From positions 1-13,074 of IMG/VR virus record IMGVR_UViG_3300045988_024578: a stretch of DNA of 13,074 nucleotides. One strand, 5' to 3'. The stretch is from a virus. The notes under the pieces are model-generated. The model ran no database searches, was not told where the DNA came from, and saw only the letters and a program-made list of their open reading frames with translations. Within the stretch, counting starts at the first letter, position 1, and every line of letters starts with the position of its first letter. This document shows positions 1 to 13,006 of the stretch, one piece after another. The position numbers were made by a program, and so were the translations under genes.

Positions 1-106
1 CACGTAATAGCAGATTGCACAAAATTTTCTTCCCCGACCCCCTATTTTTTGTGCAAAATGTCAATAGACACAAAATATAGTACCCCCGCCCCATAGGGTA
101 GGGGAG
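1..106. repeat. Left inverted terminal repeat (106 bp)
   Basis: Bases 1-106 equal the reverse complement of 12969-13074 with no mismatch on manual comparison. Identity stops at 107 (T, versus A in the right copy). Confidence 0.95.
15..56. repeat. Perfect 10-bp inverted repeat inside the ITR (potential hairpin in displaced ssDNA); mirrored at 13019-13060
   Basis: TTGCACAAAA (15-24) and TTTTGTGCAA (47-56) are exact reverse complements with a 22-nt spacer. Related CACAAAAT words recur at 18-25 and 69-76. Confidence 0.85.
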
Positions 107-373: not shown

Positions 374-646
374 ATGGAAATGCGTAAATTCATTATTGAG
401 ATTCATCCGGACGGCACACTGACATGCTGCGAATATGAGGACCCCAAGGATGCCAACAGAGCAGCAACGGACCGTGCATGGTTGGCCGGTTATCAGCAGG
501 CCCTTAAGCATTGTGAAGATCAGGTAGAATACTTAAAGAATTTTAAAGGTATTTGCCGGTCAGCCGATCTTATGTATCAGGGAGCCGAATCCGTTCGTTA
601 CGAGGTGTTATCTGCATATCGTGAATACATTAACGCCAAACATTAA
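374..646 (+). CDS. Hypothetical early protein, 90 aa
   Basis: ORF track entry; AAGGAG RBS at 359-364 about 9 nt upstream of the ATG. No motif recognised. Confidence 0.6.
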   Translation: MEMRKFIIEIHPDGTLTCCEYEDPKDANRAATDRAWLAGYQQALKHCEDQVEYLKNFKGICRSADLMYQGAESVRYEVLSAYREYINAKH

Positions 647-652
647 GTCGAA

Positions 653-691
653 ACGGCCCGCGGGCCGTCCACCGGGACCGCCCGCCCGGTG
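653..691 (+). other. Two tandem GC-rich hairpins after the second early ORF (RNA stabiliser or weak terminator)
   Basis: ACGGCCCGCGGGCCGT (653-668) is a perfect palindrome. CACCGGG (670-676) pairs with CCCGGTG (685-691). No T-tract follows, so it is not called an intrinsic terminator. Confidence 0.35.
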
Positions 692-728
692 TTGATAAGA
701 CAGGGCACATATTGAAAGGAGTTATGTT

Positions 729-1313: not shown

Positions 1314-1893
1314 AGCAAGCGCAACCCTCAAATACAGCTCCGAGCTGTACACTCCCTATGCCTTGGAGTCTTGGCCTGATAATCAGATGCGCAAAGAGTA
1401 TTCCCGATTGCGTGACATTGCCCAGAAACGTATTAAGCGCCTATCAAAAGACCCCATAAGCGGCACAAGCGACGTTTATAAAGAATTCGCTGGAGGTTTC
1501 CCGACGCTAAAATCTATGCGGGGAGACCGTAAAGCATTGGAGCAGGCCCTAGCGGATGTATCGCGTTTTGTGCGCTCCAAAGGCTCCACCGTTGGCGGTG
1601 CGCGTGCTGAGTTCGAACAAAAAATGAAAGTCGGTGGCATTGACATTGCTGACGTTCCCGAAGATCAATACATAGCCCTGTCTGAGTGGTGGGAGATCGT
1701 TAAAGCGTCGGGCGTGTATTACTATCCGTCTGACCAGCCGGTCATGTACTGGCGCGAGAAAGGCGGCTACAACGTCAGTATTGACGATTTTGTAAAGTGG
1801 CAGCAAGGTGAGGTCAATTATGGCAAAGAGTGGGACTATAGCGAGGGGAGCAGTTCTGCCGACCTGCGCGGAGGCTTTGGTGGAGGCTTGTGA
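1294..1893 (+). CDS. Candidate terminal protein (TP) for protein-primed replication, 199 aa
   Basis: It lies immediately upstream of, and overlapping, the protein-primed PolB, like phi29 gene 3 before gene 2. N-terminal KEYSRLRDIAQKRIKRL resembles phi29 TP AEYARLVKNTKAKIAR. C-terminal WDYSEG resembles the phi29 priming-loop FDSEG (Ser232). Both phi29 sequences are recalled from memory. Confidence 0.55.
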   Translation: MAVGAAKASATLKYSSELYTPYALESWPDNQMRKEYSRLRDIAQKRIKRLSKDPISGTSDVYKEFAGGFPTLKSMRGDRKALEQALADVSRFVRSKGSTVGGARAEFEQKMKVGGIDIADVPEDQYIALSEWWEIVKASGVYYYPSDQPVMYWREKGGYNVSIDDFVKWQQGEVNYGKEWDYSEGSSSADLRGGFGGGL

Positions 1894-3910
1894 CTACAAT
1901 CCGGTCCCCTGGCTCATGGAGCACTTGGACAGGAAGCACACTAAAGGCAAAAAGCGCAAAACGAACAAGAAGCGTTTGTATGTTGATATGCCGTGCGCGT
2001 TTGATATTGAGACAAGCCGCGTGTGTGTTGACGCCGACGACAACCCCCACACCATTATGTATATCTGGCAATGTCAATTAGGTCTGGATATTACCATTAT
2101 CGGCAGGACGTGGGACGAGTGGTTGAACTTTACGGGGGCGATCAGCGATTATTTACAGGCGAACAGCGGCCCTCAAGGTAACTGGTTTTTGTGTATGTAT
2201 GTCCATAATCTCGCCCATGAATTTCAATACTTATCGGGTGTTCTGGATTTTGGCCCGGGCGATGTGTTTGCCAGCAAGCCCCGCCGGGTCTTAAAATGTG
2301 ACAACCGAGCTATTGAATACCGATGCAGTATGCGTCATAGCAACTTGTCCCTTGATGCTTGGGGCAAGCAGCTGGGTGCACCTCATGCCAAATTGACCGG
2401 TACACTCGATTATTCAAGAGTGCGGTATCCCTGGACTCCCCTGACATCTACAGAATTAGCGTATTGCATCAACGATGTTCGGTGCATTGTGGAGTGCCTG
2501 TTAATCGAGATGAAGCGAGACGGTGACGACCTGTATACAATACCATTAACGCGCACCGGCTATGTTAGACGGATGGCCCGCGAAGCAATGTATAAATGGG
2601 GCATTAAAAAAGCCAAGCGCCTACTGCCATCATGGGACCTATACCAGATGTTGCGGGAAGCCTTCCGAGGCGGCGACACCCACGCCAATCGGTATTATGT
2701 TGGGCTCCATCTGGAAAACGTCGGATCCGTGGATATGTCGAGTGCATACCCAGCCGTACAATGTGAATGCTACTTCCCGATGACTCCATTTAGGCAGGAG
2801 CCGGCCACTGTCGAACGGCTGATGCAATGTATGAGACACGGCAAGGCGTGCTTAATTCGCTTGCAACTAAAAGGTCTACGCCAGCGCTTTAAGTGGTGGG
2901 GGTTTCCGTATATCCCCCTTGCGAAGGTCCGGCACTGTGAAGGATACATAAACGACAATGGCCGGCTGTTGTCTGCTGAGCATCTCGAGATCACAATAAC
3001 AGATATTGACTTTAGAATCATTGCAAAAGAATATGATTGGGACGCTCTTAACGTTCTGGACCTTTACACATCTGATTATGGCAGATTGCCTAAACCGTTG
3101 ACGGATTGTGTAAAAGAGAGCTACGCCGGCAAGACATCCCTTAAAGGCGTAGCCGGTCAAGATTTGTATTATGTCAAAGCCAAGGGCGATCTTAACAGTT
3201 ACTATGGTATGACCGCGCAGGACCCCTTGCAGCTGGACACACTTTTTGACGAGGACGACCCCGACAATCTTTGGAGCGAATGCACCGACGACCCAGAGGG
3301 CAGTTATAACGATCACCGCCCTCATTTGTATCTCCCGTACCAATGGGGCGTATGGACTACTGCCCATACTCGCAAGCGCCTTAAAATAGCGCAGTGGGCC
3401 GCGGGCAAGAATGGCGTGTACTGCGACACCGACAGTGTCAAATATATGGGTAGTATTGATTTGTCGGAGTTTAACAAAGCCGTAAAGCAGCTCGCAAAAG
3501 ACAATGGCGCTTGCGCTACAGACCCCAAAGGCAACACTCATTATATGGGCGTATACGAGCAGGAGCGCAGCTATGCGGAGTTTATGACGTGGGGCGCTAA
3601 AAAATACGCAACTACCTATAAAAAAGGCGGGCCGATCACTACTACCATAGCAGGAGTCAGCAAGCGGAAGGGCGGTCTAGAGCTGGCCCTGTGGGGTGGT
3701 TTTGAAGTGTTCAAACCTGGATTCACTTTTTGTTTTGCGGCAGGCAATCAGGTTATCTATAATGACCGCCCCAATGTGCCCGATTTTGTGGTTGACGGGC
3801 ATACGGTACACATCACAAGAAACCTGTGTATTTGTGATAATACCTATACGTTGGGTATTACTGACGAATACGCAAAGATATTAGGGTACAAGATTATGGA
3901 GGTTATCTGA
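1820..3910 (+). CDS. Family-B DNA polymerase, protein-primed (phi29 gp2-like)
   Basis: ExoI FDIETS, ExoII-like HNLAHEF, ExoIII YCINDV, motif A DMSSAYP, motif B KGDLNSYYG, motif C YCDTDS and KxY (AKKYA), all in canonical order. Start set at ATG 1820, 6 nt after AAGGTGAGG (1805-1813). The ORF opens at GTG 1808, and ATG 1916 is an RBS-less alternative. Confidence 0.93.
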   Translation: MAKSGTIARGAVLPTCAEALVEACDYNPVPWLMEHLDRKHTKGKKRKTNKKRLYVDMPCAFDIETSRVCVDADDNPHTIMYIWQCQLGLDITIIGRTWDEWLNFTGAISDYLQANSGPQGNWFLCMYVHNLAHEFQYLSGVLDFGPGDVFASKPRRVLKCDNRAIEYRCSMRHSNLSLDAWGKQLGAPHAKLTGTLDYSRVRYPWTPLTSTELAYCINDVRCIVECLLIEMKRDGDDLYTIPLTRTGYVRRMAREAMYKWGIKKAKRLLPSWDLYQMLREAFRGGDTHANRYYVGLHLENVGSVDMSSAYPAVQCECYFPMTPFRQEPATVERLMQCMRHGKACLIRLQLKGLRQRFKWWGFPYIPLAKVRHCEGYINDNGRLLSAEHLEITITDIDFRIIAKEYDWDALNVLDLYTSDYGRLPKPLTDCVKESYAGKTSLKGVAGQDLYYVKAKGDLNSYYGMTAQDPLQLDTLFDEDDPDNLWSECTDDPEGSYNDHRPHLYLPYQWGVWTTAHTRKRLKIAQWAAGKNGVYCDTDSVKYMGSIDLSEFNKAVKQLAKDNGACATDPKGNTHYMGVYEQERSYAEFMTWGAKKYATTYKKGGPITTTIAGVSKRKGGLELALWGGFEVFKPGFTFCFAAGNQVIYNDRPNVPDFVVDGHTVHITRNLCICDNTYTLGITDEYAKILGYKIMEVI

Positions 3911-4971
3911 TGATTAAACTGTACACCGATGAAGGTTGGCCGAACTTTTCCGAGAAGGACGGCATCTTGTCAACTGGGGCACCCATTATTTTTATATGGG
4001 GCGGACGTGGCACCGGAAAGACCTATGGAGCGCTAAAGCACGTCCACCAGACCGAAGAGGAATTTCTGTATTTGCGTCGCACGCCACAGCAGGCGGAACT
4101 TATTTGTGCATCACCCAGTATGTGGCCGTGGTCTCCGTTGAACGACGATCTACAAACGCATTATGCCCCGTTCAAATTGCCCAAGATAGCGGGACTATAT
4201 GAAGTGGGCAACGCAGGAGCCTACACGGATACAGGAGCGCCCATTAAACCAGCCAAGATGTCGGGCGTCGTGGGAAGTGTGGTCACTCTGGCTCGCACCC
4301 GTGGTTTTTCAAGTCCTCATACCAACATAATCATTTTAGACGAATACCAGAAAGAAGAATCCGACTATTACCGACGCGGCGAGGGCGTGGGCCTTGCCAA
4401 CATTTATGAAACGGTCAACCGTAACCGCGAACTGCAAGGGCAAAAGCCCTTGACGCTGTTGTGTATGTCAAACGCTGTTGGCATGGCAAACCCCTATTAT
4501 ATGCAATGGGAGATCACAGACACAGTAGAAAAGATGATCGGGACTAAAGAGCGCGTAAAGCTGCTTGCTGATAAAGGCATTTTGCTGATTGATCTTGTCG
4601 ATAGTCCCATCTCAAAGGAAAAAGCAAATACGGCCCTCTATAGGTCCATGACCGGCACAGACTTTTACAGATCAGCTATTGAAAACCAATACAGCGCAGA
4701 AGAAAAGAGTTTGGTTGTGTCCCGGCCCCTCAGGGAATACTACCCGCTTGTACAAATTGGCCGGTGCTGCATCTACGAGCACAAGAGCAAGCCGTTATAC
4801 TATGTTTGCCGTCACAGATCGGGCGAGATGCCCACTTACGGCACCGGCGACTATGAGCGGAAACGTTTTAGGGCCGCGTATGGGTACATCTGGCCCGCGT
4901 ACTTGCAGCGGCAACTTGAATTTGAGCGGTACTCGGATGAAATTTTCTTCCGCGAGTATTGCGGTACTTGA
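3910..4971 (+). CDS. DNA encapsidation (packaging) ATPase, phi29 gp16-like
   Basis: Walker A GGRGTGKT and Walker B IIILDEY. LYLRRTPQQAE and VNRNRE...LLCMSNAVGMANPYY match recalled gp16 segments IYVRRYKPELA and FRNRERVRCICLSNAVSVVNPYF. The start overlaps the polymerase stop (TGATG). Confidence 0.9.
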   Translation: MIKLYTDEGWPNFSEKDGILSTGAPIIFIWGGRGTGKTYGALKHVHQTEEEFLYLRRTPQQAELICASPSMWPWSPLNDDLQTHYAPFKLPKIAGLYEVGNAGAYTDTGAPIKPAKMSGVVGSVVTLARTRGFSSPHTNIIILDEYQKEESDYYRRGEGVGLANIYETVNRNRELQGQKPLTLLCMSNAVGMANPYYMQWEITDTVEKMIGTKERVKLLADKGILLIDLVDSPISKEKANTALYRSMTGTDFYRSAIENQYSAEEKSLVVSRPLREYYPLVQIGRCCIYEHKSKPLYYVCRHRSGEMPTYGTGDYERKRFRAAYGYIWPAYLQRQLEFERYSDEIFFREYCGT

Positions 4972-4995
4972 CTTTTTACGCAGTTGTTATATAAT
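4968..4995 (+). promoter_or_regulatory. Near-consensus sigma-A promoter (probable late / structural-operon promoter)
   Basis: TTGACT (4968-4973, overlapping the ATPase stop codon), a 16-nt spacer, then TATAAT (4990-4995). Confidence 0.65.
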
Positions 4996-5001
4996 AAAGT
5001 T

Positions 5002-5071
5002 AATCCCCGGTGCCCACAGGCAGCCCCCAGAAGGGGCGGGCAGGCGTCAGCCAGCGCAAGAACCGGGGATT
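5002..5071 (+). ncRNA. Candidate structured RNA element in the leader of the late operon
   Basis: AATCCCCGGT (5002-5011) is the exact reverse complement of ACCGGGGATT (5062-5071), a 10-bp closing helix. Inside, GCCCC (5023-5027) pairs with GGGGC (5033-5037), extended by GCCC (5012-5015) with GGGC (5038-5041). It lies 7 nt past the -10 box and about 13 nt before the next RBS. Confidence 0.35.
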
Positions 5072-5098
5072 TACTTGTACCTGCAAGGAGGTGCTCAT

Positions 5099-5257
5099 AT
5101 GGATGCTAATACTGTGATACAGGCTATTTCTAACGTTGGTTTTCCCATTGCCGCGTTCTTGCTGATGTGGTATCAGTGTAACACCGTGGTTAAGGAGAAT
5201 ACCGCGGCTATTACTGAAATGCGACTCGCTCTGGACGAGATCAAGAAGGAGAGCTAA
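5099..5257 (+). CDS. YvrJ-like small membrane protein, 52 aa (possible holin-like lysis or membrane factor)
   Basis: AAGGAGG (5085-5091) then ATG at 5099. MDANTVIQAISNVGFPIAAFLLMWYQCNTVVKENTAAITEMRLALDEIKKES has one hydrophobic helix plus an amphipathic tail. The NVGFPI...LL pattern matches my recollection of the YvrJ family. The track ORF 4679-5257 is the same frame over-extended upstream. Confidence 0.6.
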   Translation: MDANTVIQAISNVGFPIAAFLLMWYQCNTVVKENTAAITEMRLALDEIKKES

Positions 5258-5847: not shown

Positions 5848-7122
5848 ATGCCCCTTGGCATGGATTTTGCGGACATTGCCGCCATTTTGACCGAGATCAA
5901 CAAACTGGCCACGGGCCAGACACCAACGTCGCCCATCGTGGATACGTCTAGTTTCGTTTCCGTGGCGCAGGCCACTTTGCTGACCGGCACCGACAACTAC
6001 ACCAAAGCGATCAGTCAGGTGCTAGGCAATACCATTTTTGCCGTACGGCCCTACGATGCCCCGCTCAAGCGCTTGCAGGTCACGGGCGACGACTGGTCCA
6101 ACCATGTGCGGAAGATCAATTTCTGCGACACGGACCCCGTCACAGACGAGGCGTGGGCGCTGGAGGACGGACAGAGTGTCGATATGTACGAAGTCCACAA
6201 ACCTAAAGTCCTTCAGACAAACTACTACGGCCAGACCAACTACAGCCGCGTGTACACCCAGGCAGACACCCAGATGGAAGCGGCCTTCAAGGGCCCCGAG
6301 GAACTGGCGCAGTTCTGGTCCTCGTTCGTGCTGCATCTGTCGAATCAGATCGAGGCCGACCGGCGCAACCTCGCAAACAACCTGATGGCCAACCATCTGA
6401 CCGGCATGACTGCGACCAGCCCGCACAGTGTTGTGTATCTGCTCGATGAGTACAACTCCCAGCAGGGCACCAGCCTGACGGTGAAGGACGCCTACAAAGA
6501 AGCGAATTTTCCTGGTTTTGCAAAATACGCCTATGGCCGAATCAACGATATCTCCCGCCTTATGAAGGAGCGGTCGACCAAATGGCATCAGAATTGGACT
6601 ATCGGCGGCACGACGTACAACATCATGCGCCACACTCCGTATGATCGTCAGCACCTCTATTTGTACAGCGGCACGCAGAGCCAGATCGACGCCCGCGTGA
6701 TTCCCGAGGTGTTCCATGACAACATGCTGAAATACCGCGATGCCGAGCAGGTCACGTTCTGGCAGGACCTCAAAAACCGTGAGACTATCTCCGCGACGCC
6801 TGTTATCACCGATAATACTGGAAAGGCATCCAAACATGACGCGGTGCAGCTGACCAATGTGTTCGGTTGTCTGTTGGACTGGGATGCCATCGGGTACACT
6901 CCGAAGCTGTCTCGTGTGGTCTCGACTCCCATGAACGCCCGCGGCCTGTATACAAACTTCTGGTATCACTACGGTTGGTCGTGGTACGATGACTTCACCG
7001 AGAACGCCGTTCTGTTCCTGATGACCGCCGGCGACGTCTCCGCGCCCAGCTCGGGCAAAGAGGCCAGAGCCTCCACCCTGAAAACTACCACTCATAAGGA
7101 CGCGGACCCATCTAAGTCCTGA
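5848..7122 (+). CDS. Major capsid protein (phi29 gp8-like, without the C-terminal Ig-like domain)
   Basis: ARGLYTNFWYHYGWSWYDDFTENAVLFL matches the recalled gp8 segment [28 protein letters not shown]. Size is 424 aa. It sits after the scaffold candidate and is followed by a strong terminator. Confidence 0.88.
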   Translation: MPLGMDFADIAAILTEINKLATGQTPTSPIVDTSSFVSVAQATLLTGTDNYTKAISQVLGNTIFAVRPYDAPLKRLQVTGDDWSNHVRKINFCDTDPVTDEAWALEDGQSVDMYEVHKPKVLQTNYYGQTNYSRVYTQADTQMEAAFKGPEELAQFWSSFVLHLSNQIEADRRNLANNLMANHLTGMTATSPHSVVYLLDEYNSQQGTSLTVKDAYKEANFPGFAKYAYGRINDISRLMKERSTKWHQNWTIGGTTYNIMRHTPYDRQHLYLYSGTQSQIDARVIPEVFHDNMLKYRDAEQVTFWQDLKNRETISATPVITDNTGKASKHDAVQLTNVFGCLLDWDAIGYTPKLSRVVSTPMNARGLYTNFWYHYGWSWYDDFTENAVLFLMTAGDVSAPSSGKEARASTLKTTTHKDADPSKS

Positions 7123-7127
7123 CCAGC

Positions 7128-7158
7128 ACCGGCGGGCATCTGCCCGCCGGTTATTTTT
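7128..7158 (+). terminator. Rho-independent terminator after the capsid gene
   Basis: ACCGGCGGGCA (7128-7138) and TGCCCGCCGGT (7141-7151) form a perfect 11-bp stem. TTATTTTT follows. Confidence 0.85.
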
Positions 7159-8600: not shown

Positions 8601-9140
8601 ATGGCAGTATATAAACAGTGCATTACTGATGTATCACCGATCAGAGTGACCGCCGGTTATCCTGCGTACTCTGACGGCAGCCCTCACCGGGGCATTGACA
8701 CCGTCCACGGAGACCATAAAGCCTACGCGCCCGAGGCGGGCACCGTGGTAGTGGCCCAGCATTGGAATGGCAGCACCTCGGGCGACCAGTCATGGGGCAA
8801 TATGATTAAAGTGCGAATGGCCGACGGCACGACATGGCGAGCCGCACACTTTGCCTCGCAGATTTGGAACGTGGGAGATACCATCACAAAGGGGCAGTTT
8901 ATCGGCACCCAGGGAGAGACCGGCAACGCAACGGGCATTCACACACACTGGGAATATGCCGATGCAGCCGGAAACCTGATGGACCCTGCCGGCATTATCA
9001 GGATCCCGAATCAGGTGGGCACTTGGGACGTCGAATGGGACTCCGGCGGAGGCCCTGGCCCGGGTCCCGGGCCGTGGCCTACTGGCAAATTGCCGGTATG
9101 GTTGCTGTTTAAGATGGCGAAGGGAGGTCGGCTGTTGTGA
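8601..9140 (+). CDS. Peptidase M23 (LytM-type peptidoglycan endopeptidase), probably virion-associated and/or lytic
   Basis: HxxxD (H29-RGI-D33) and HxH (H114-T-H116) zinc motifs, plus GETGNATG upstream of HTHWE. A C-terminal GGGPGPGPGP linker is followed by KLPVWLLFKMAKGGRLL. Confidence 0.85.
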   Translation: MAVYKQCITDVSPIRVTAGYPAYSDGSPHRGIDTVHGDHKAYAPEAGTVVVAQHWNGSTSGDQSWGNMIKVRMADGTTWRAAHFASQIWNVGDTITKGQFIGTQGETGNATGIHTHWEYADAAGNLMDPAGIIRIPNQVGTWDVEWDSGGGPGPGPGPWPTGKLPVWLLFKMAKGGRLL

Positions 9141-10078
9141 GTGCTCCCTACAGCTACGAACAGATTAACGCCCATGTGTCGCCGGTGACTCCCTCCGTGA
9201 TGCACACAAAAGGAAATAGCCTGTCCTATTATTTCCGCAAGTATCTATTTCTTGAGGCCGTGTCTATGGTACGATGGACGCTCCCCGACACGTGGCCCAG
9301 TAACCGCTTGCAGTATCTGGTCTTTGGCGCGGGCGGTGTTACGGTGTTTAAAACTGACCGTTATGGCATGGTATATGACAGAATGGGACTGACCGGCATT
9401 AACATTTTTTACAATCCCACACACTCCATTATTGCCAACCCTTTTATTAAAGGGTCCCATTATTTGCAAATCGGGAAACAATGCGAAATCATCAATTTAC
9501 AGCCCGATTACCGCGGGATGGTTGATATTGTGGCATATTACGGGGACCTGATGGCACTTGCCGCCCAGACCATCCAGAGCAATTTAATCAATAGCCGCCT
9601 TGCCTATGTGTTTGCCGCCGGCAACAAGGCCGGCGCAGAATCTTTTAAAAAGATGTTTGACCAGATCATGCAGGGCGACCCCGCGGTATTCGTTGATTCG
9701 TCTTTGCTCAAAGCACCCAAAAATGGGGCATCCGGGCAAGCCCCTTGGATGTATTTTGCAACCGACCTTAAAGGGAACTTCATCACAAACGAATTGCTTA
9801 CAGCCCTTAAAACCATTAAAGCGCTGTTCGATACGGAAGTTGGCATTCCGAACACAAATACCAGCAAGAAAGAACGGATGCTGACCGATGAAGTTAATTC
9901 TAACAACGTTGAAACAGCCGCTAAGGCGTCGCTCTGGTTGGACAACTTGCAGCGCGGTTGTGAGCGGGTGCACAAGCTGTTTGGAATTGACAAATCTACT
10001 TTGTGGGTAGATTGGCGTTTTCCGCCCAATACTGGCGCACAGGAGGTGAATAACGATGCAAGCAACCTTGAGCTTTAA
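9137..10078 (+). CDS. Portal / upper collar connector protein (phi29 gp10-like)
   Basis: GIPNTNTSKKERMLTDEVNSNNVETAAKASLWLDNLQRGCERVHKLFGI matches recalled gp10 [49 protein letters not shown]. Size is 313 aa versus 309 aa. GTG start 9 nt after GGGAGG, overlapping the upstream stop (GTGA). Confidence 0.9.
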   Translation: MSAPYSYEQINAHVSPVTPSVMHTKGNSLSYYFRKYLFLEAVSMVRWTLPDTWPSNRLQYLVFGAGGVTVFKTDRYGMVYDRMGLTGINIFYNPTHSIIANPFIKGSHYLQIGKQCEIINLQPDYRGMVDIVAYYGDLMALAAQTIQSNLINSRLAYVFAAGNKAGAESFKKMFDQIMQGDPAVFVDSSLLKAPKNGASGQAPWMYFATDLKGNFITNELLTALKTIKALFDTEVGIPNTNTSKKERMLTDEVNSNNVETAAKASLWLDNLQRGCERVHKLFGIDKSTLWVDWRFPPNTGAQEVNNDASNLEL

Positions 10079-12919: not shown

Positions 12920-13006
12920 GTGCCCTCTCCCCTACCCTATGGGGCGGGGGTACTATATTTTGTGCCCTCTCCCCTACCCTATGGGGCGGGGGTACTATAT
13001 TTTGTG
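12914..13006. repeat. 42-bp direct tandem repeat, 2 identical copies plus a 9-nt partial third, spanning the right ITR boundary
   Basis: TATTTTGTGCCCTCTCCCCTACCCTATGGGGCGGGGGTACTA occurs at 12914-12955 and again at 12956-12997. TATTTTGTG occurs at 12998-13006. The left end (78-106) carries only one truncated copy. Confidence 0.92.

What the first reader, a model, noticed from the sequence alone, without database searches (positions are those of the whole stretch)
4968..5073. Near-consensus promoter immediately followed by a 70-nt GC-rich multi-helix RNA, between the packaging ATPase and the late genes
TTGACT-16-TATAAT is the best promoter in the genome. The transcript would begin with a structure closed by a perfect 10-bp helix (5002-5011 / 5062-5071) that encloses further GC helices. 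The structure ends about 13 nt before the next RBS. Four roles seem possible. (a) A cis-acting antitermination RNA, like HK022 put, letting late transcription read through the internal terminator at 7128-7158. (b) A regulated attenuator, since the closing helix is followed by UUUA. (c) A 5' stabiliser. (d) A small packaging RNA: phi29-type motors need a pRNA, none is evident at the left end, and the element abuts the ATPase gene.
Basis: partly seen in the sequence, partly recalled or inferred. Interest (0 to 1): 0.6.

Follow-up and report, generated by a model that had tools for sequence, protein, structure and literature searches.

The report
Miniature pRNA-like RNA heading late genes
A strongly conserved 70-nucleotide folded RNA, made from the best promoter of this 13-kb phi29-like gut phage at the very start of its late genes, has the same fold plan as the DNA-packaging RNA (pRNA) so far shown experimentally only in Bacillus phi29-type phages, and is probably a miniature version of it.

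Summary
TTGACT-16-TATAAT (4968-4995) is the best promoter match in the window, and the RNA starting about 5002 folds far better than shuffles (z = -4.4). The conserved fold is not the single-sequence cloverleaf. It is a three-way junction:
- P1: 5002-5010 / 5063-5071.
- P2: 5012-5015 / 5038-5041.
- A 7-nt bulge on the 5' side.
- P3 hairpin with a C-N-G-A-A loop.
- P4 hairpin, whose loop pairs with the bulge.

All five helices covary across 63 distinct sequences (94.7% paired; covariation 0.96, against 0.20 shuffled and 0.12-0.15 slid). There is one copy per genome. It always lies behind a near-consensus promoter at the head of the late operon, in three different genome arrangements and in the cultured Amedibacillus phage AD70P3. 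Rfam has no match.

The topology equals that of phi29 pRNA (A, C, CE bulge, E, D helices, CE/D loop pairing), at the size of the pRNA prohead-binding domain. My best reading is a miniature packaging RNA co-transcribed with the late genes (about 0.5). The rivals are cis-acting leader roles (antitermination, attenuation or translation control, stabiliser; about 0.4 together).

About a third of lineages also carry a covarying complement of the P3 loop just before the ribosome-binding site.

An earlier follow-up in this scan reached the same reading on another genome.

The parts
4968..4973 (+). -35 hexamer TTGACT; it overlaps the ATPase stop codon TGA (4969-4971).
   Evidence: top-scoring promoter-like site, 11 of 12. 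A TTGACA-like -35 is conserved upstream of the element in relatives.
4990..4995 (+). -10 hexamer TATAAT. The predicted transcription start is about 5002, the first base of P1.
   Evidence: In 64 of 67 distinct upstream contexts a promoter matching at least 9 of 12 precedes the element. The distance from the -10 hexamer to P1 is most often 6-8 nt. The start site is inferred, not measured.
5002..5010 (+). P1 5' strand (AAUCCCCGG). It corresponds to the A helix of pRNA.
   Evidence: It pairs with 5063-5071. All 10 model pairs show changes on both sides across relatives.
5012..5015 (+). P2 5' strand (GCCC). It corresponds to the C helix.
   Evidence: It pairs with 5038-5041 (GGGC). All cells are paired and all 4 pairs covary. 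Examples are GGAC/GUCC, GUCC/GGAC and GCAC/GUGC.
5016..5022 (+). Bulge on the 5' side only (ACAGGCA). It corresponds to the CE loop. GGC (5019-5021) pairs with the P4 loop.
   Evidence: Bulge-loop pairing of 3-6 bp in relatives, for example GCACA/UGUGC, AGUCA/UGACU and AACCA/UGGUU. The pseudoknot columns are 99% paired in A2 and 83% in A3, and 3 of the 5 pairs covary.
5023..5037 (+). P3 hairpin GCCCC-CAGAA-GGGGC. It corresponds to the E helix and loop. The loop is the near-universal C-N-G-A-A.
   Evidence: All 4 pairs covary and 99.6% of cells are paired. The loop is CGGAA, CAGAA or CUGAA in almost all relatives.
5038..5041 (+). P2 3' strand (GGGC). It follows P3 directly, with no bulge on the 3' side.
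5044..5057 (+). P4 hairpin GCGU-CAGCCA-GCGC. It corresponds to the D helix and loop. Loop GCC (5050-5052) pairs with the bulge.
   Evidence: All 4 pairs covary and 99.6% of cells are paired. The single-sequence fold draws this region differently; relatives support this version.
5058..5062 (+). Junction J4/1 (AAGAA), purine-rich with a conserved GA.
   Evidence: The consensus is A-R-G-A-A in alignments A2 and A3. phi29 pRNA has no counterpart.
5063..5071 (+). P1 3' strand (CCGGGGAUU).
   Evidence: Compensatory variants occur even among near-identical relatives: CCUCGG/CCGAGG, CCCAGG/CCUGGG, CCUUGG/CCAAGG and CUCAGG/CCUGAG.
5072..5084 (+). U-rich spacer (UACUUGUACCUGC) holding CUG (5081-5083), a partial complement of the P3 loop CAG. 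Most close relatives have UCUG here.
   Evidence: the exact 4-nt complement of the P3 loop lies 6-14 nt after the element in 10 of 33 sequence clusters, and it follows the loop sequence (CGGAA/UCCG, CAGAA/UCUG, CUGAA/UCAG). The pairing itself is inferred.
5085..5101 (+). RBS AAGGAGG (5085-5091) and the start codon (5099-5101) of the first late gene, a 52-aa holin-like membrane protein (5099-5257).
   Evidence: phrog_4898 holin, E = 2e-6; weak YvrJ match.
3910..4971 (+). gp16-type DNA-packaging ATPase. In phi29 this is the protein that docks on pRNA.
   Evidence: Pfam Podovirus_Gp16 at 2.1e-14. PDB 7jqq_A (phi29 packaging ATPase) at E = 7.3e-11.

Best explanation
The element is a member of a previously unnamed family of about 70-nt structured RNAs. 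The family is encoded once per genome in a large clade of 12-15-kb protein-primed, phi29-like podophages of the gut.

A near-consensus sigma-70/sigma-A promoter starts transcription at the first base of helix P1. The first 70 nt fold into a three-way junction:
- P1.
- A P2-P3 arm, interrupted by a bulge on the 5' side.
- A P4 hairpin whose loop is complementary to the last bases of the bulge.

This is the fold plan of phi29 prohead RNA (A helix; C helix, CE bulge and E hairpin; D hairpin; CE/D loop pairing), reduced to the size of the pRNA prohead-binding domain.

The most likely function is therefore that of a miniature packaging RNA:
2. The invariant C-N-G-A-A loop of P3 touches the prohead.
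3. P1 offers the docking site for the gp16-type ATPase.
4. The 3' end is made by termination at P1 plus its U tract, by a separate terminator in some lineages, or by nuclease processing.
5. Read-through transcripts carry the late genes.

What is shown: the fold, its covariation, the one-per-genome distribution, the promoter, and the position at the head of the late operon.

What is inferred: the transcription start, the release of a discrete small RNA, the intermolecular nature of the loop pairing, and any role in packaging.
For: - The fold is real. On 63 distinct sequences, 94.7% of cells are paired and 25 of 27 pairs change on both sides. The covariation score is 0.958, against 0.200 for shuffles and 0.12-0.15 for slid controls. 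The ungapped seed gives the same picture. RNAalifold predicts the same nested fold on its own.
- The bulge-loop pairing was not part of the covariance model, yet it is 83% paired and 3 of its 5 pairs covary.
- G-U pairs occur at many positions, so the folded strand is the sense RNA.
- There is one hit per genome. Model R1 found 81 of 92 sources and R2 added 7 more. The window's own complete record has a single hit of 55 bits.
- The element is kept down to about 25-35% ATPase identity, including the cultured Amedibacillus phage AD70P3.
- The topology is identical to the Rfam pRNA consensus drawn on phi29. Both have a 5'-side bulge only. In both, the pairing bases are the last bases of that bulge, next to the E/P3 helix, and the partner lies in the D/P4 hairpin loop. 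Both have 0-1 nt between A and C, and 2-3 nt between C and D.
- The size (66-86 nt) matches the 71-74-nt prohead-binding domain of pRNA (PMC5066667; PMC8104870).
- The phage has the phi29 motor set: a gp16-type ATPase, a Phi29_MCP capsid protein and a gp10-type connector.
- The genome has no other non-coding stretch able to hold a structured RNA, apart from a hammerhead and the terminal repeats.
- The promoter is of the strong constitutive kind, as is A1, the phi29 promoter that drives pRNA.
- Several lineages have a terminator directly after the element.
Against:
- P1 is only about 10 bp and has no CCA-type bulge. phi29 needs a long A helix (bases 1-28 and 92-117) with that bulge for ATPase binding and packaging (PMC5066667).
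- There is no sequence or covariance-model similarity to RF00044.
- The element is always the 5' leader of the late operon, through three genome rearrangements. A cis-acting element must be there; a trans-acting RNA need not be.
- About a third of lineages have a covarying complement of the P3 loop just upstream of the RBS. This points to an interaction within the mRNA.
- Many lineages have no terminator after P1, so release would need processing.
- The connector N-terminus is not basic. phi29 gp10 is recalled from memory, not tested here, to use an N-terminal RKR to bind pRNA.
- Covariation cannot tell intramolecular from intermolecular pairing.
Confidence: 0.5

Rival explanations
1. The element is a cis-acting operator or attenuator of the late operon. 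The folded leader, perhaps bound by a phage or host protein or by a small ligand at the invariant P3 loop and junction purines, sets how much transcription passes the terminator that follows it. It may also set how well the first late gene is translated. That would work through pairing of the P3 loop with the UCCG/UCUG box a few bases upstream of the ribosome-binding site.
For: - The element is always the 5' leader of the late operon, whatever the genome arrangement.
- P1 plus a U tract, or a separate canonical terminator (L152, L154, L157, L159, L162), lies between the element and the late genes in many lineages.
- The complement of the P3 loop lies 6-14 nt after the element in 10 of 33 clusters and follows the loop sequence. 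For CGGAA loops, UCCG occurs in 27 of 67, against 7, 6 and 2 for control words. For CAGAA loops, UCUG occurs in 27 of 44, against 0.
- The late promoter is constitutive in form, so some other brake on late genes would make sense.
Against: - No alternative (anti-terminator or anti-sequestor) pairing is evident.
- P1 closes independently of the downstream sequence.
- The U tract and the loop complement are each absent from many lineages, while the fold is universal.
- No riboswitch or leader family of Rfam matches.
- The match to the pRNA fold plan would then be a coincidence.
Confidence: 0.22
2. The element is a processive antitermination RNA, working like HK022 put or the Bacillus EAR element. 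The nascent folded leader binds the RNA polymerase that made it. That polymerase then resists the terminators downstream, both those just after the element and the strong one after the capsid gene at 7128-7158.
For: - The element lies at the very 5' end of the transcript, directly behind the promoter.
- Terminators follow it in several lineages. L086 has P1 plus U6 and a second hairpin with a U run (read by eye). The L159 group has a dedicated terminator.
- A strong terminator sits inside the late operon, with essential genes behind it.
- Universal retention fits an essential role.
Against: - put consists of two stem-loops without a three-way junction or pseudoknot (recalled from memory, not tested here).
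- No similarity to any antitermination RNA in Rfam.
- A terminator after the capsid gene is common in phages without any antitermination and can work by partial read-through.
- The hypothesis does not explain the bulge-loop pairing of the pRNA type.
Confidence: 0.15
3. The element is only a 5' stabiliser. A base-paired 5' end protects the late mRNA from 5'-end-dependent RNases.
For: The predicted transcription start is the first base of P1. A paired 5' end is a known stabiliser in Firmicutes (general knowledge).
Against: A simple hairpin would do. The conserved junction, the invariant C-N-G-A-A loop and the covarying pseudoknot are far more than this role requires.
Confidence: 0.04
4. The element is a new self-cleaving ribozyme that processes the late transcript.
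For: These genomes already use a hammerhead in the early region. The element is compact, with a junction, a pseudoknot and invariant purines.
Against: It matches no ribozyme class in Rfam. The junction strands (0-1, 2 and 4-5 nt) do not fit the hammerhead core. No candidate cleavage site is conserved.
Confidence: 0.03

Closest known systems
phi29 prohead / packaging RNA (pRNA; Rfam RF00044). Demonstrated in Bacillus phages of the phi29 group and predicted for Cp-1.
   Same: - The host virus type is the same: protein-primed polymerase, gp16-type ATPase, phi29-type capsid protein and connector.
- The secondary-structure topology is the same. A closing helix is formed by the 5' and 3' ends. It opens into a three-way junction. 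One arm is interrupted by a bulge on the 5' side only and ends in a hairpin. The other arm is a hairpin.
- In both, the last bases of the bulge are Watson-Crick complementary to the hairpin loop, and that pairing covaries.
- The size equals the 71-74-nt prohead-binding domain.
- Both are driven by a strong host-type promoter.
   Different: - No sequence or covariance-model similarity.
- The helices are much shorter: C 4 against 9 bp, D 4-5 against 6 bp, and A about 10 against about 26 bp.
- There is no CCA bulge and no domain II.
- A 4-5-nt purine junction lies between P4 and P1, where pRNA has none.
- The P3 loop is an invariant C-N-G-A-A.
- The element sits in sense orientation as the 5' leader of the late operon. 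phi29 pRNA is a separate gene at the left genome end.
- Whether a discrete RNA is made, whether the pairing is intermolecular, and whether it acts in packaging are all untested.
HK022 put RNA and the Bacillus EAR element (processive antitermination RNAs).
   Same: A folded RNA of about 70-120 nt lies near the start of a transcript that must pass terminators. It acts without needing translation.
   Different: The fold plan is different (recalled from memory). There is no Rfam match. No evidence here bears on polymerase binding.
Riboswitch-type or protein-binding 5' leaders.
   Same: A compact junction-plus-pseudoknot fold with invariant unpaired purines lies directly upstream of an operon. In some lineages a terminator follows.
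   Different: No expression platform with alternative pairing is seen. P1 starts at the transcription start. The terminator and the downstream box are facultative. No known class matches.
Anonymous candidate structured RNAs catalogued from IMG/VR intergenic regions (PMC10690425).
   Same: The data source is the same (IMG/VR gut phage contigs) and the size range is the same (median 65 nt). A motif this abundant and this well covarying may be in that list.
   Different: Membership could not be checked, because the supplementary tables are not held. That paper's main text holds no occurrence of 'pRNA' or 'prohead RNA' (word counts).

Membership tests
pRNA (phi29 prohead RNA, RF00044) | Encoded by a phage with the phi29-type packaging motor (gp16 ATPase, gp10 connector). 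| tested here: met
   Pfam Podovirus_Gp16 at 2.1e-14, Phage_connector at 7.8e-17 and Phi29_MCP at 2.1e-18. PDB 7jqq_A at E = 7.3e-11.
pRNA (phi29 prohead RNA, RF00044) | A three-way junction of a terminal helix (A), a C-E arm and a D hairpin. | tested here: met
   The consensus fold is ((((<<<<-------<<<<_____>>>>>>>>,<<<<_______>>>>,,)))), supported by covariation. The Rfam pRNA structure line on phi29 has the same order of elements.
pRNA (phi29 prohead RNA, RF00044) | Bases of the CE bulge loop are complementary to the D loop, and this pairing covaries. | tested here: met
   The 5-column pairing is 99% paired in A2 and 83% in A3, and 3 of its pairs change on both sides in 26-35 sequences.
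pRNA (phi29 prohead RNA, RF00044) | The loop pairing is intermolecular and builds a ring on the prohead. | not testable with these tools
   Covariation cannot separate pairing in cis from pairing in trans. This needs native gels, trans-complementation of loop mutants, or cryo-EM.
pRNA (phi29 prohead RNA, RF00044) | A long A helix with a CCA bulge that binds the ATPase. | tested here: not met
   P1 is about 9-12 bp without a conserved bulge. phi29 needs bases 1-28 and 92-117 and the C18C19A20 bulge (PMC5066667).
pRNA (phi29 prohead RNA, RF00044) | A match to the family covariance model. | tested here: not met
   No RF00044 hit in the window at E <= 1, nor in 4940-5130 at E <= 10. The same model scores 145 bits on phi29.
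pRNA (phi29 prohead RNA, RF00044) | A discrete small transcript with its own promoter and 3' end. | tested here: inconclusive
   A promoter is present in 64 of 67 contexts. A terminator-like U tract or a separate terminator occurs in many lineages but not all. No RNA data could be obtained.
pRNA (phi29 prohead RNA, RF00044) | Required for DNA packaging, and present on proheads but not in virions. | not testable with these tools
   Experimental only.
Intrinsic terminator / attenuator | A GC-rich stem directly followed by a run of U, conserved across relatives. | tested here: inconclusive
   The window has UUUACUUGUA after the stem. L086 and the L092 group have good U runs. L097, L112, L161 and L167 have none. 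The L159 group has a separate terminator.
HK022 put-type antitermination RNA | Two adjacent stem-loops that act on the transcribing polymerase. | tested here: not met
   The conserved fold is a three-way junction with a pseudoknot. The put architecture is recalled from memory. Polymerase binding is not testable here.
tRNA / tRNA-like | Cloverleaf recognised by a tRNA finder. | tested here: not met
   ARAGORN finds nothing in the window. The cloverleaf-like single-sequence fold is not the conserved fold.
Known self-cleaving ribozyme classes | A match to the Rfam models for hammerhead, twister, twister-sister, pistol, hatchet, HDV and the rest. | tested here: not met
   No hit on 4940-5130 at E <= 10 with lax filters.

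The most novel reading that the evidence does not exclude
The element is a true minimal prohead RNA. A 70-nt RNA, co-transcribed as the 5' leader of the late mRNA, forms the ring of a phi29-type packaging motor in one of the most abundant groups of small human-gut phages. Its prohead-binding loop can also pair with the late mRNA just before the first ribosome-binding site, which would link the supply of packaging RNA to late gene expression. pRNA would then be a general feature of phi29-like phages rather than a Bacillus-phage oddity, and much smaller than thought possible.
Probability: 0.45. Interest if true: 0.85.

Novelty: new variant of a known kind. Interest (0 to 1): 0.78.

Why it matters
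Reviews describe pRNA as unique to phi29 and related Bacillus phages (PMC5066667; PMC11476376). Its origin, and the reason an RNA sits in a DNA-packaging motor, are open questions.

A covarying RNA with the same fold plan at half the size would bear on this in three ways. It is present once in every genome of a large, highly prevalent clade of gut podophages; the 90%-identity cluster of the nearest ATPase representative holds 5,613 sequences.
- It would show that the RNA component is ancient and widespread.
- It would define which parts of pRNA are truly needed: the junction, the interlocking loops and the E-type loop, but not the long A helix.
- It would give a cultured test system, Amedibacillus phage AD70P3.

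If the element instead proves to be a cis-acting leader, it is a new class of phage regulatory RNA governing the late operon of these phages.

Either way, it is a well-supported RNA family that is missing from Rfam.

Tried and rejected
- **Rfam.** No family matches, either in the whole window at E <= 1 or in the 191-nt region at E <= 10 with lax filters. The only hit was a chance GNAS-AS1 match at E = 3.6.
- **tRNA or tmRNA.** None found.
- **Single-sequence cloverleaf fold.** Rejected as the functional fold. Its first and third hairpins are not kept in relatives. In the window it is 5.8 kcal/mol better than the nested consensus without the pseudoknot, because GGC can pair with either of two GCC words. 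This is specific to the lineage.
- **P1 plus U tract as a defining terminator.** Rejected, because it is not universal.
- **'The element belongs to the ATPase gene.'** Rejected. In L086, L092, L134, L140-142, L145-146 and L165 the ATPase lies on the other strand, far away.
- **Coding potential.** The holin frame happens to be open through the element in the window (ORF 4679-5257). Length changes and compensatory changes in relatives exclude a coding role.
- **Single distant ATPases as queries in IMG/VR.** These found little or nothing. An alignment query was needed.
- **Basic N-terminus of the connector, as in phi29 gp10.** Not present.
- **Models R1 and R2 on other phages.** No hit on the phi29 left end, Cp-1 or Clostridium phage CI461P1.
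- **Larger pRNA-like fold in CI461P1.** A candidate lies between the polymerase and ATPase genes. The only relatives are 93-100% identical and give no compensatory changes, so it stays a lead.
- **Martin et al. 1996 on the Cp-1 pRNA.** Not held.
- **Supplements of the IMG/VR structured-RNA catalogue.** Not held.
Full report
**The observation**

The window is a complete 13,074-nt virus record with inverted terminal repeats. At 4968-4995 lies TTGACT, a 16-nt spacer and TATAAT. This matches 11 of 12 positions and is the best promoter-like site in the whole window. Its -35 hexamer overlaps the stop codon of the preceding gene.

The 10-bp helix 5002-5011 / 5062-5071 is perfect. The 70-nt stretch folds at -39.8 kcal/mol, against -26.2 +/- 3.1 for shuffles (z = -4.4). 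The RBS AAGGAGG begins 13 nt after the helix, and the start codon of a 52-aa holin-like gene is at 5099. The description is therefore correct.

**Context**

The genome is a small phi29-like podophage. All of the following genes lie on the + strand:

| Coordinates | Gene |
|---|---|
| 1808-3910 | Protein-primed type-B DNA polymerase |
| 3910-4971 | gp16-type packaging ATPase |
| 5099-5257 | Holin-like small membrane protein |
| 5848-7122 | Phi29-type major capsid protein |
| 8601-9140 | M23 peptidase |
| 9137-10078 | gp10-type connector |

The ATPase also matches the phi29 ATPase chain of the solved packaging motor (7jqq_A, E = 7e-11). The nearest GenBank record is an unannotated human-faecal phage, 88% identical. 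IMG/VR holds at least 176 contigs with a near-identical ATPase. The 90%-identity cluster of the nearest ATPase representative has 5,613 members.

**What relatives show**

Among 80 close relatives the core of the element is almost invariant, while the promoter spacer and the downstream spacer vary. The closing helix shows compensatory changes: CCCCGG/CCGGGG, CCUCGG/CCGAGG, CCCAGG/CCUGGG, CCUUGG/CCAAGG and CUCAGG/CCUGAG.

In relatives with 25-60% ATPase identity the sequence is largely different, but one fold is kept. It runs as follows:
- P1.
- 0-1 nt.
- P2 (4 bp).
- A bulge of about 7 nt on the 5' side only.
- P3 (4-5 bp), with a C-N-G-A-A loop.
- The P2 3' strand, following directly.
- 2 nt (A-N).
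- P4 (4-5 bp), with a 6-9-nt loop.
- 4-5 nt (A-R-G-A-A).
- The P1 3' strand.

The last 3-6 bases of the bulge are Watson-Crick complementary to the P4 loop, and the two change together. Examples are GGC/GCC in the window, and GAGC/GCUC, AGGC/GCCU, GUGC/GCAC, UAGC/GCUA, GCACA/UGUGC, AGUCA/UGACU, AACCA/UGGUU and GAAACA/UGUUUC elsewhere.

In window coordinates:

| Part | Coordinates |
|---|---|
| P1 | 5002-5010 / 5063-5071 |
| P2 | 5012-5015 / 5038-5041 |
| Bulge | 5016-5022 |
| P3 | 5023-5027 / 5033-5037 |
| P3 loop | 5028-5032 |
| P4 | 5044-5047 / 5054-5057 |
| P4 loop | 5048-5053 |
| Bulge-loop pairing | 5019-5021 with 5050-5052 |

The single-sequence fold of the window draws the inside differently. 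Its GGC can also pair with the GCC of P2, giving -39.8 kcal/mol against -34.0 for the nested consensus without the pseudoknot. For relatives such as L097 the minimum-energy fold is essentially the consensus, with P1 and P4 each one pair longer.

**Statistics**

On an ungapped 20-sequence seed (A2):
- 96.9% of cells are paired, against 63.6% in shuffles.
- 23 of 27 pairs change on both sides.
- The covariation score is 0.876, against 0.199 for shuffles (0 of 500 as high) and 0.08-0.15 for slid partners.

That seed was picked with a descriptor that demanded pairing, so I repeated the count. The second alignment was made by a covariance model that knows nothing of the pseudoknot (A3, 63 distinct sequences):
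- 94.7% of cells are paired.
- 25 of 27 pairs change on both sides.
- The covariation score is 0.958, against 0.200 for shuffles and 0.12-0.15 for slid partners.
- The pseudoknot columns are 83% paired, with 26-35 sequences changed on both sides at three of its five pairs.

RNAalifold predicts the same nested fold on its own. G-U pairs at many positions show that the sense strand is the one that folds.

**Distribution**

Model R1 gives exactly one hit in each of 81 of 92 sources; the window scores 40.3 bits, E = 9e-8. Model R2 adds seven more sources. It scores the window at 55 bits, as its only match in the complete record.

Four sources remain:
- L087 has the element by the descriptor scan, identical to that of L086.
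- L095, the cultured Amedibacillus phage AD70P3 of the Guelinviridae, has the element by the descriptor scan.
- L094 has a variant that I read by eye.
- L123 has no element. There the ATPase gene is followed directly by a terminator-like hairpin, and no promoter or leader follows it. I infer that the contig does not reach the head of the late operon.

A further relative, L176, has a more divergent version with other loops.

The element lies right after the ATPase gene in the common, co-directional arrangement. In genomes where the early genes and the ATPase are on the other strand, it stays at the head of the late operon, kilobases from the ATPase. This holds for L086 and L165 (divergent) and for L092, L134, L140-142 and L145-146 (convergent).

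**Flanks**

A promoter matching at least 9 of 12 positions of TTGACA-16/18-TATAAT precedes the element in 64 of 67 distinct contexts. P1 most often begins 6-8 nt after the -10 hexamer, so the transcript should start with P1. This is inferred; no start site was measured.

What follows P1 is not uniform (the L086 tail is):
- In many lineages a U-rich run follows directly. L086 has AUUUUUUGAG, the L092 group has UUUUUGUAU, and the window has UUUACUUGUA.
- One lineage (L152, L154, L157, L159, L162) has a separate canonical terminator hairpin.
- Others (L097, L112, L161, L167) have no U run at all.

A second feature emerged. In 10 of 33 sequence clusters the exact 4-nt complement of the P3 loop lies 6-14 nt after the element, just upstream of the RBS, and it follows the loop sequence:
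- For CGGAA loops, UCCG occurs in 27 of 67, against 7, 6 and 2 for control words.
- For CAGAA loops, UCUG occurs in 27 of 44, against 0 for controls.
- For the CUGAA loop of L164, the word is UCAG.
- L175 and L093 carry the full UUCCG.

The window itself has CCUG (5080-5083), a 3-bp version.

**Comparison with pRNA**

The Rfam pRNA model scores 145 bits on phi29. Its structure line there reads as follows:
- A helix, then 1 nt.
- C helix.
- A 9-nt bulge on the 5' side only (the CE loop).
- E hairpin.
- The C helix 3' strand, following directly.
- 3 nt.
- D hairpin.
- A helix 3' strand.

In pRNA the last four bases of the CE bulge (AACC), directly beside the E helix, pair with GGUU in the D loop of a neighbouring molecule to form the ring on the prohead. 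The bases and their position are my reading of the alignment, plus recall. PMC5066667 documents the intermolecular CE/D pairing. The E loop touches the capsid protein (PMC8104870).

The present family has the same order of elements, the same one-sided bulge, the same placement of the pairing bases and the same kind of partner loop. Its size (66-86 nt) is that of the pRNA prohead-binding domain (71-74 nt; PMC5066667, PMC8104870).

It differs in several ways:
- The helices are shorter (C 4 bp, D 4-5 bp, A about 10 bp).
- There is no CCA bulge and no domain II.
- An A-R-G-A-A junction lies between P4 and P1.
- There is no detectable sequence or model similarity.
- It sits as a sense leader of the late operon, not as a separate gene at the genome end.

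**Interpretation**

Four things are shown. This is a real structured RNA family that is missing from Rfam. It is universal in this phage clade. It is driven by a strong promoter. It is fixed at the start of the late transcription unit.

My best reading, at about 0.5, is a miniature pRNA. The reasons:
- The same virus type needs such an RNA in the archetype.
- The fold plan matches in every topological detail.
- The element is never lost, even at 25-35% ATPase identity.
- The genome offers no other candidate RNA besides a hammerhead.

Against this reading:
- The A-helix equivalent is short.
- The link to the late operon is obligatory.
- The P3 loop has a facultative partner in the mRNA.
- Many lineages lack a terminator after P1.
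- The connector N-terminus is not basic.

The main rivals are cis-acting roles:
- An operator or attenuator that uses the terminator and the loop-to-RBS-proximal pairing (about 0.22).
- A put- or EAR-like antitermination RNA (about 0.15).
- A plain stabiliser (about 0.04).
- A new ribozyme (about 0.03).

The readings do not exclude one another. A packaging RNA made as the leader of the late mRNA could also act on that mRNA.

**Novelty and literature**

Two reviews state that pRNA is known only from phi29 and related Bacillus phages (PMC5066667; PMC11476376). A pRNA was predicted for Cp-1, but covariance models do not recover it (PMC6266182). A catalogue of 8,495 anonymous candidate structured RNAs from IMG/VR exists (PMC10690425) and may contain this motif. 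Its tables are not held. Its main text holds no occurrence of 'pRNA' or 'prohead RNA' (word counts).

An earlier follow-up in this scan, on another genome (e1-3467462), reached the same 'miniature pRNA-like leader' reading. I saw it, after writing down the same idea. It is not independent evidence.

I class the finding as a new variant of a known kind, with high interest.

Noticed in passing
window 646-709 (+); L088 564-628; L090 779-845: A type II hammerhead ribozyme candidate lies between two small early ORFs. In the window it scores 35.1 bits, just under the gathering score of 37 (E = 4.5e-4). Syntenic copies in two relatives score 55.1 and 50.0 bits, above the threshold. The window copy reads UUGAUAA where the consensus has CUGAUGA: U in place of core C3 and A in place of core G8. 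I recall from memory that these two positions pair with each other in the active fold.
   Followed up: partly
window 5080-5083; close relatives L002-L081 have UCUG at the same place; L118, L098, L099, L090, L092, L093, L138, L175, L164: A short box complementary to the P3 loop lies 6-14 nt after the element, just before the RBS, in 10 of 33 sequence clusters. It changes with the loop (CGGAA/UCCG, CAGAA/UCUG, CUGAA/UCAG). It may form a second pseudoknot between the leader and the late mRNA.
   Followed up: partly
L152 4891-4925, and the same place in L154, L157, L159 and L162: One lineage has a separate canonical terminator hairpin (AGGCGG...CCGCCU plus UGUUUUAUU) directly after the element and before the first late gene. 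No promoter lies in between. Late genes there depend on read-through.
   Followed up: no
L173 (Clostridium phage CI461P1, NC_073481.1) 9905-10018, minus strand: A larger candidate RNA of about 110 nt lies behind TTTACA-17-TATAAT, between the polymerase and ATPase genes. It has a long closing helix, a three-way junction, an arm with a 5' bulge (CCACA) and a hairpin loop (CUGGUAA) with 3 complementary bases, then a U run. The fold z-score is only -2.7. The only relatives are 93-100% identical, and their few differences are not compensatory.
   Followed up: partly
L086, L165, L092, L134, L140-142, L145-146 compared with the window: Phages of this clade have at least three genome arrangements of the early block (including the ATPase) and the late block: co-directional, divergent and convergent. 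The RNA element moves with the late block in all of them.
   Followed up: partly
window 81-100 (-), 12933-12952 (+), 12975-12994 (+): A 20-nt hairpin-forming word, TACCCTATGGGGCGGGGGTA, each time followed by CTATATTTTG, occurs once near the left end in inverted orientation and twice near the right end. It is probably part of the inverted terminal repeats or origins.
   Followed up: no
window 5012-5021: In the window's lineage only, the bulge GGC can pair with the GCC of P2 as well as with the GCC of the P4 loop. The single-sequence minimum-energy fold is therefore a cloverleaf that competes with the conserved fold. This may be an alternative conformer or an accident of a GC-rich sequence.
   Followed up: partly
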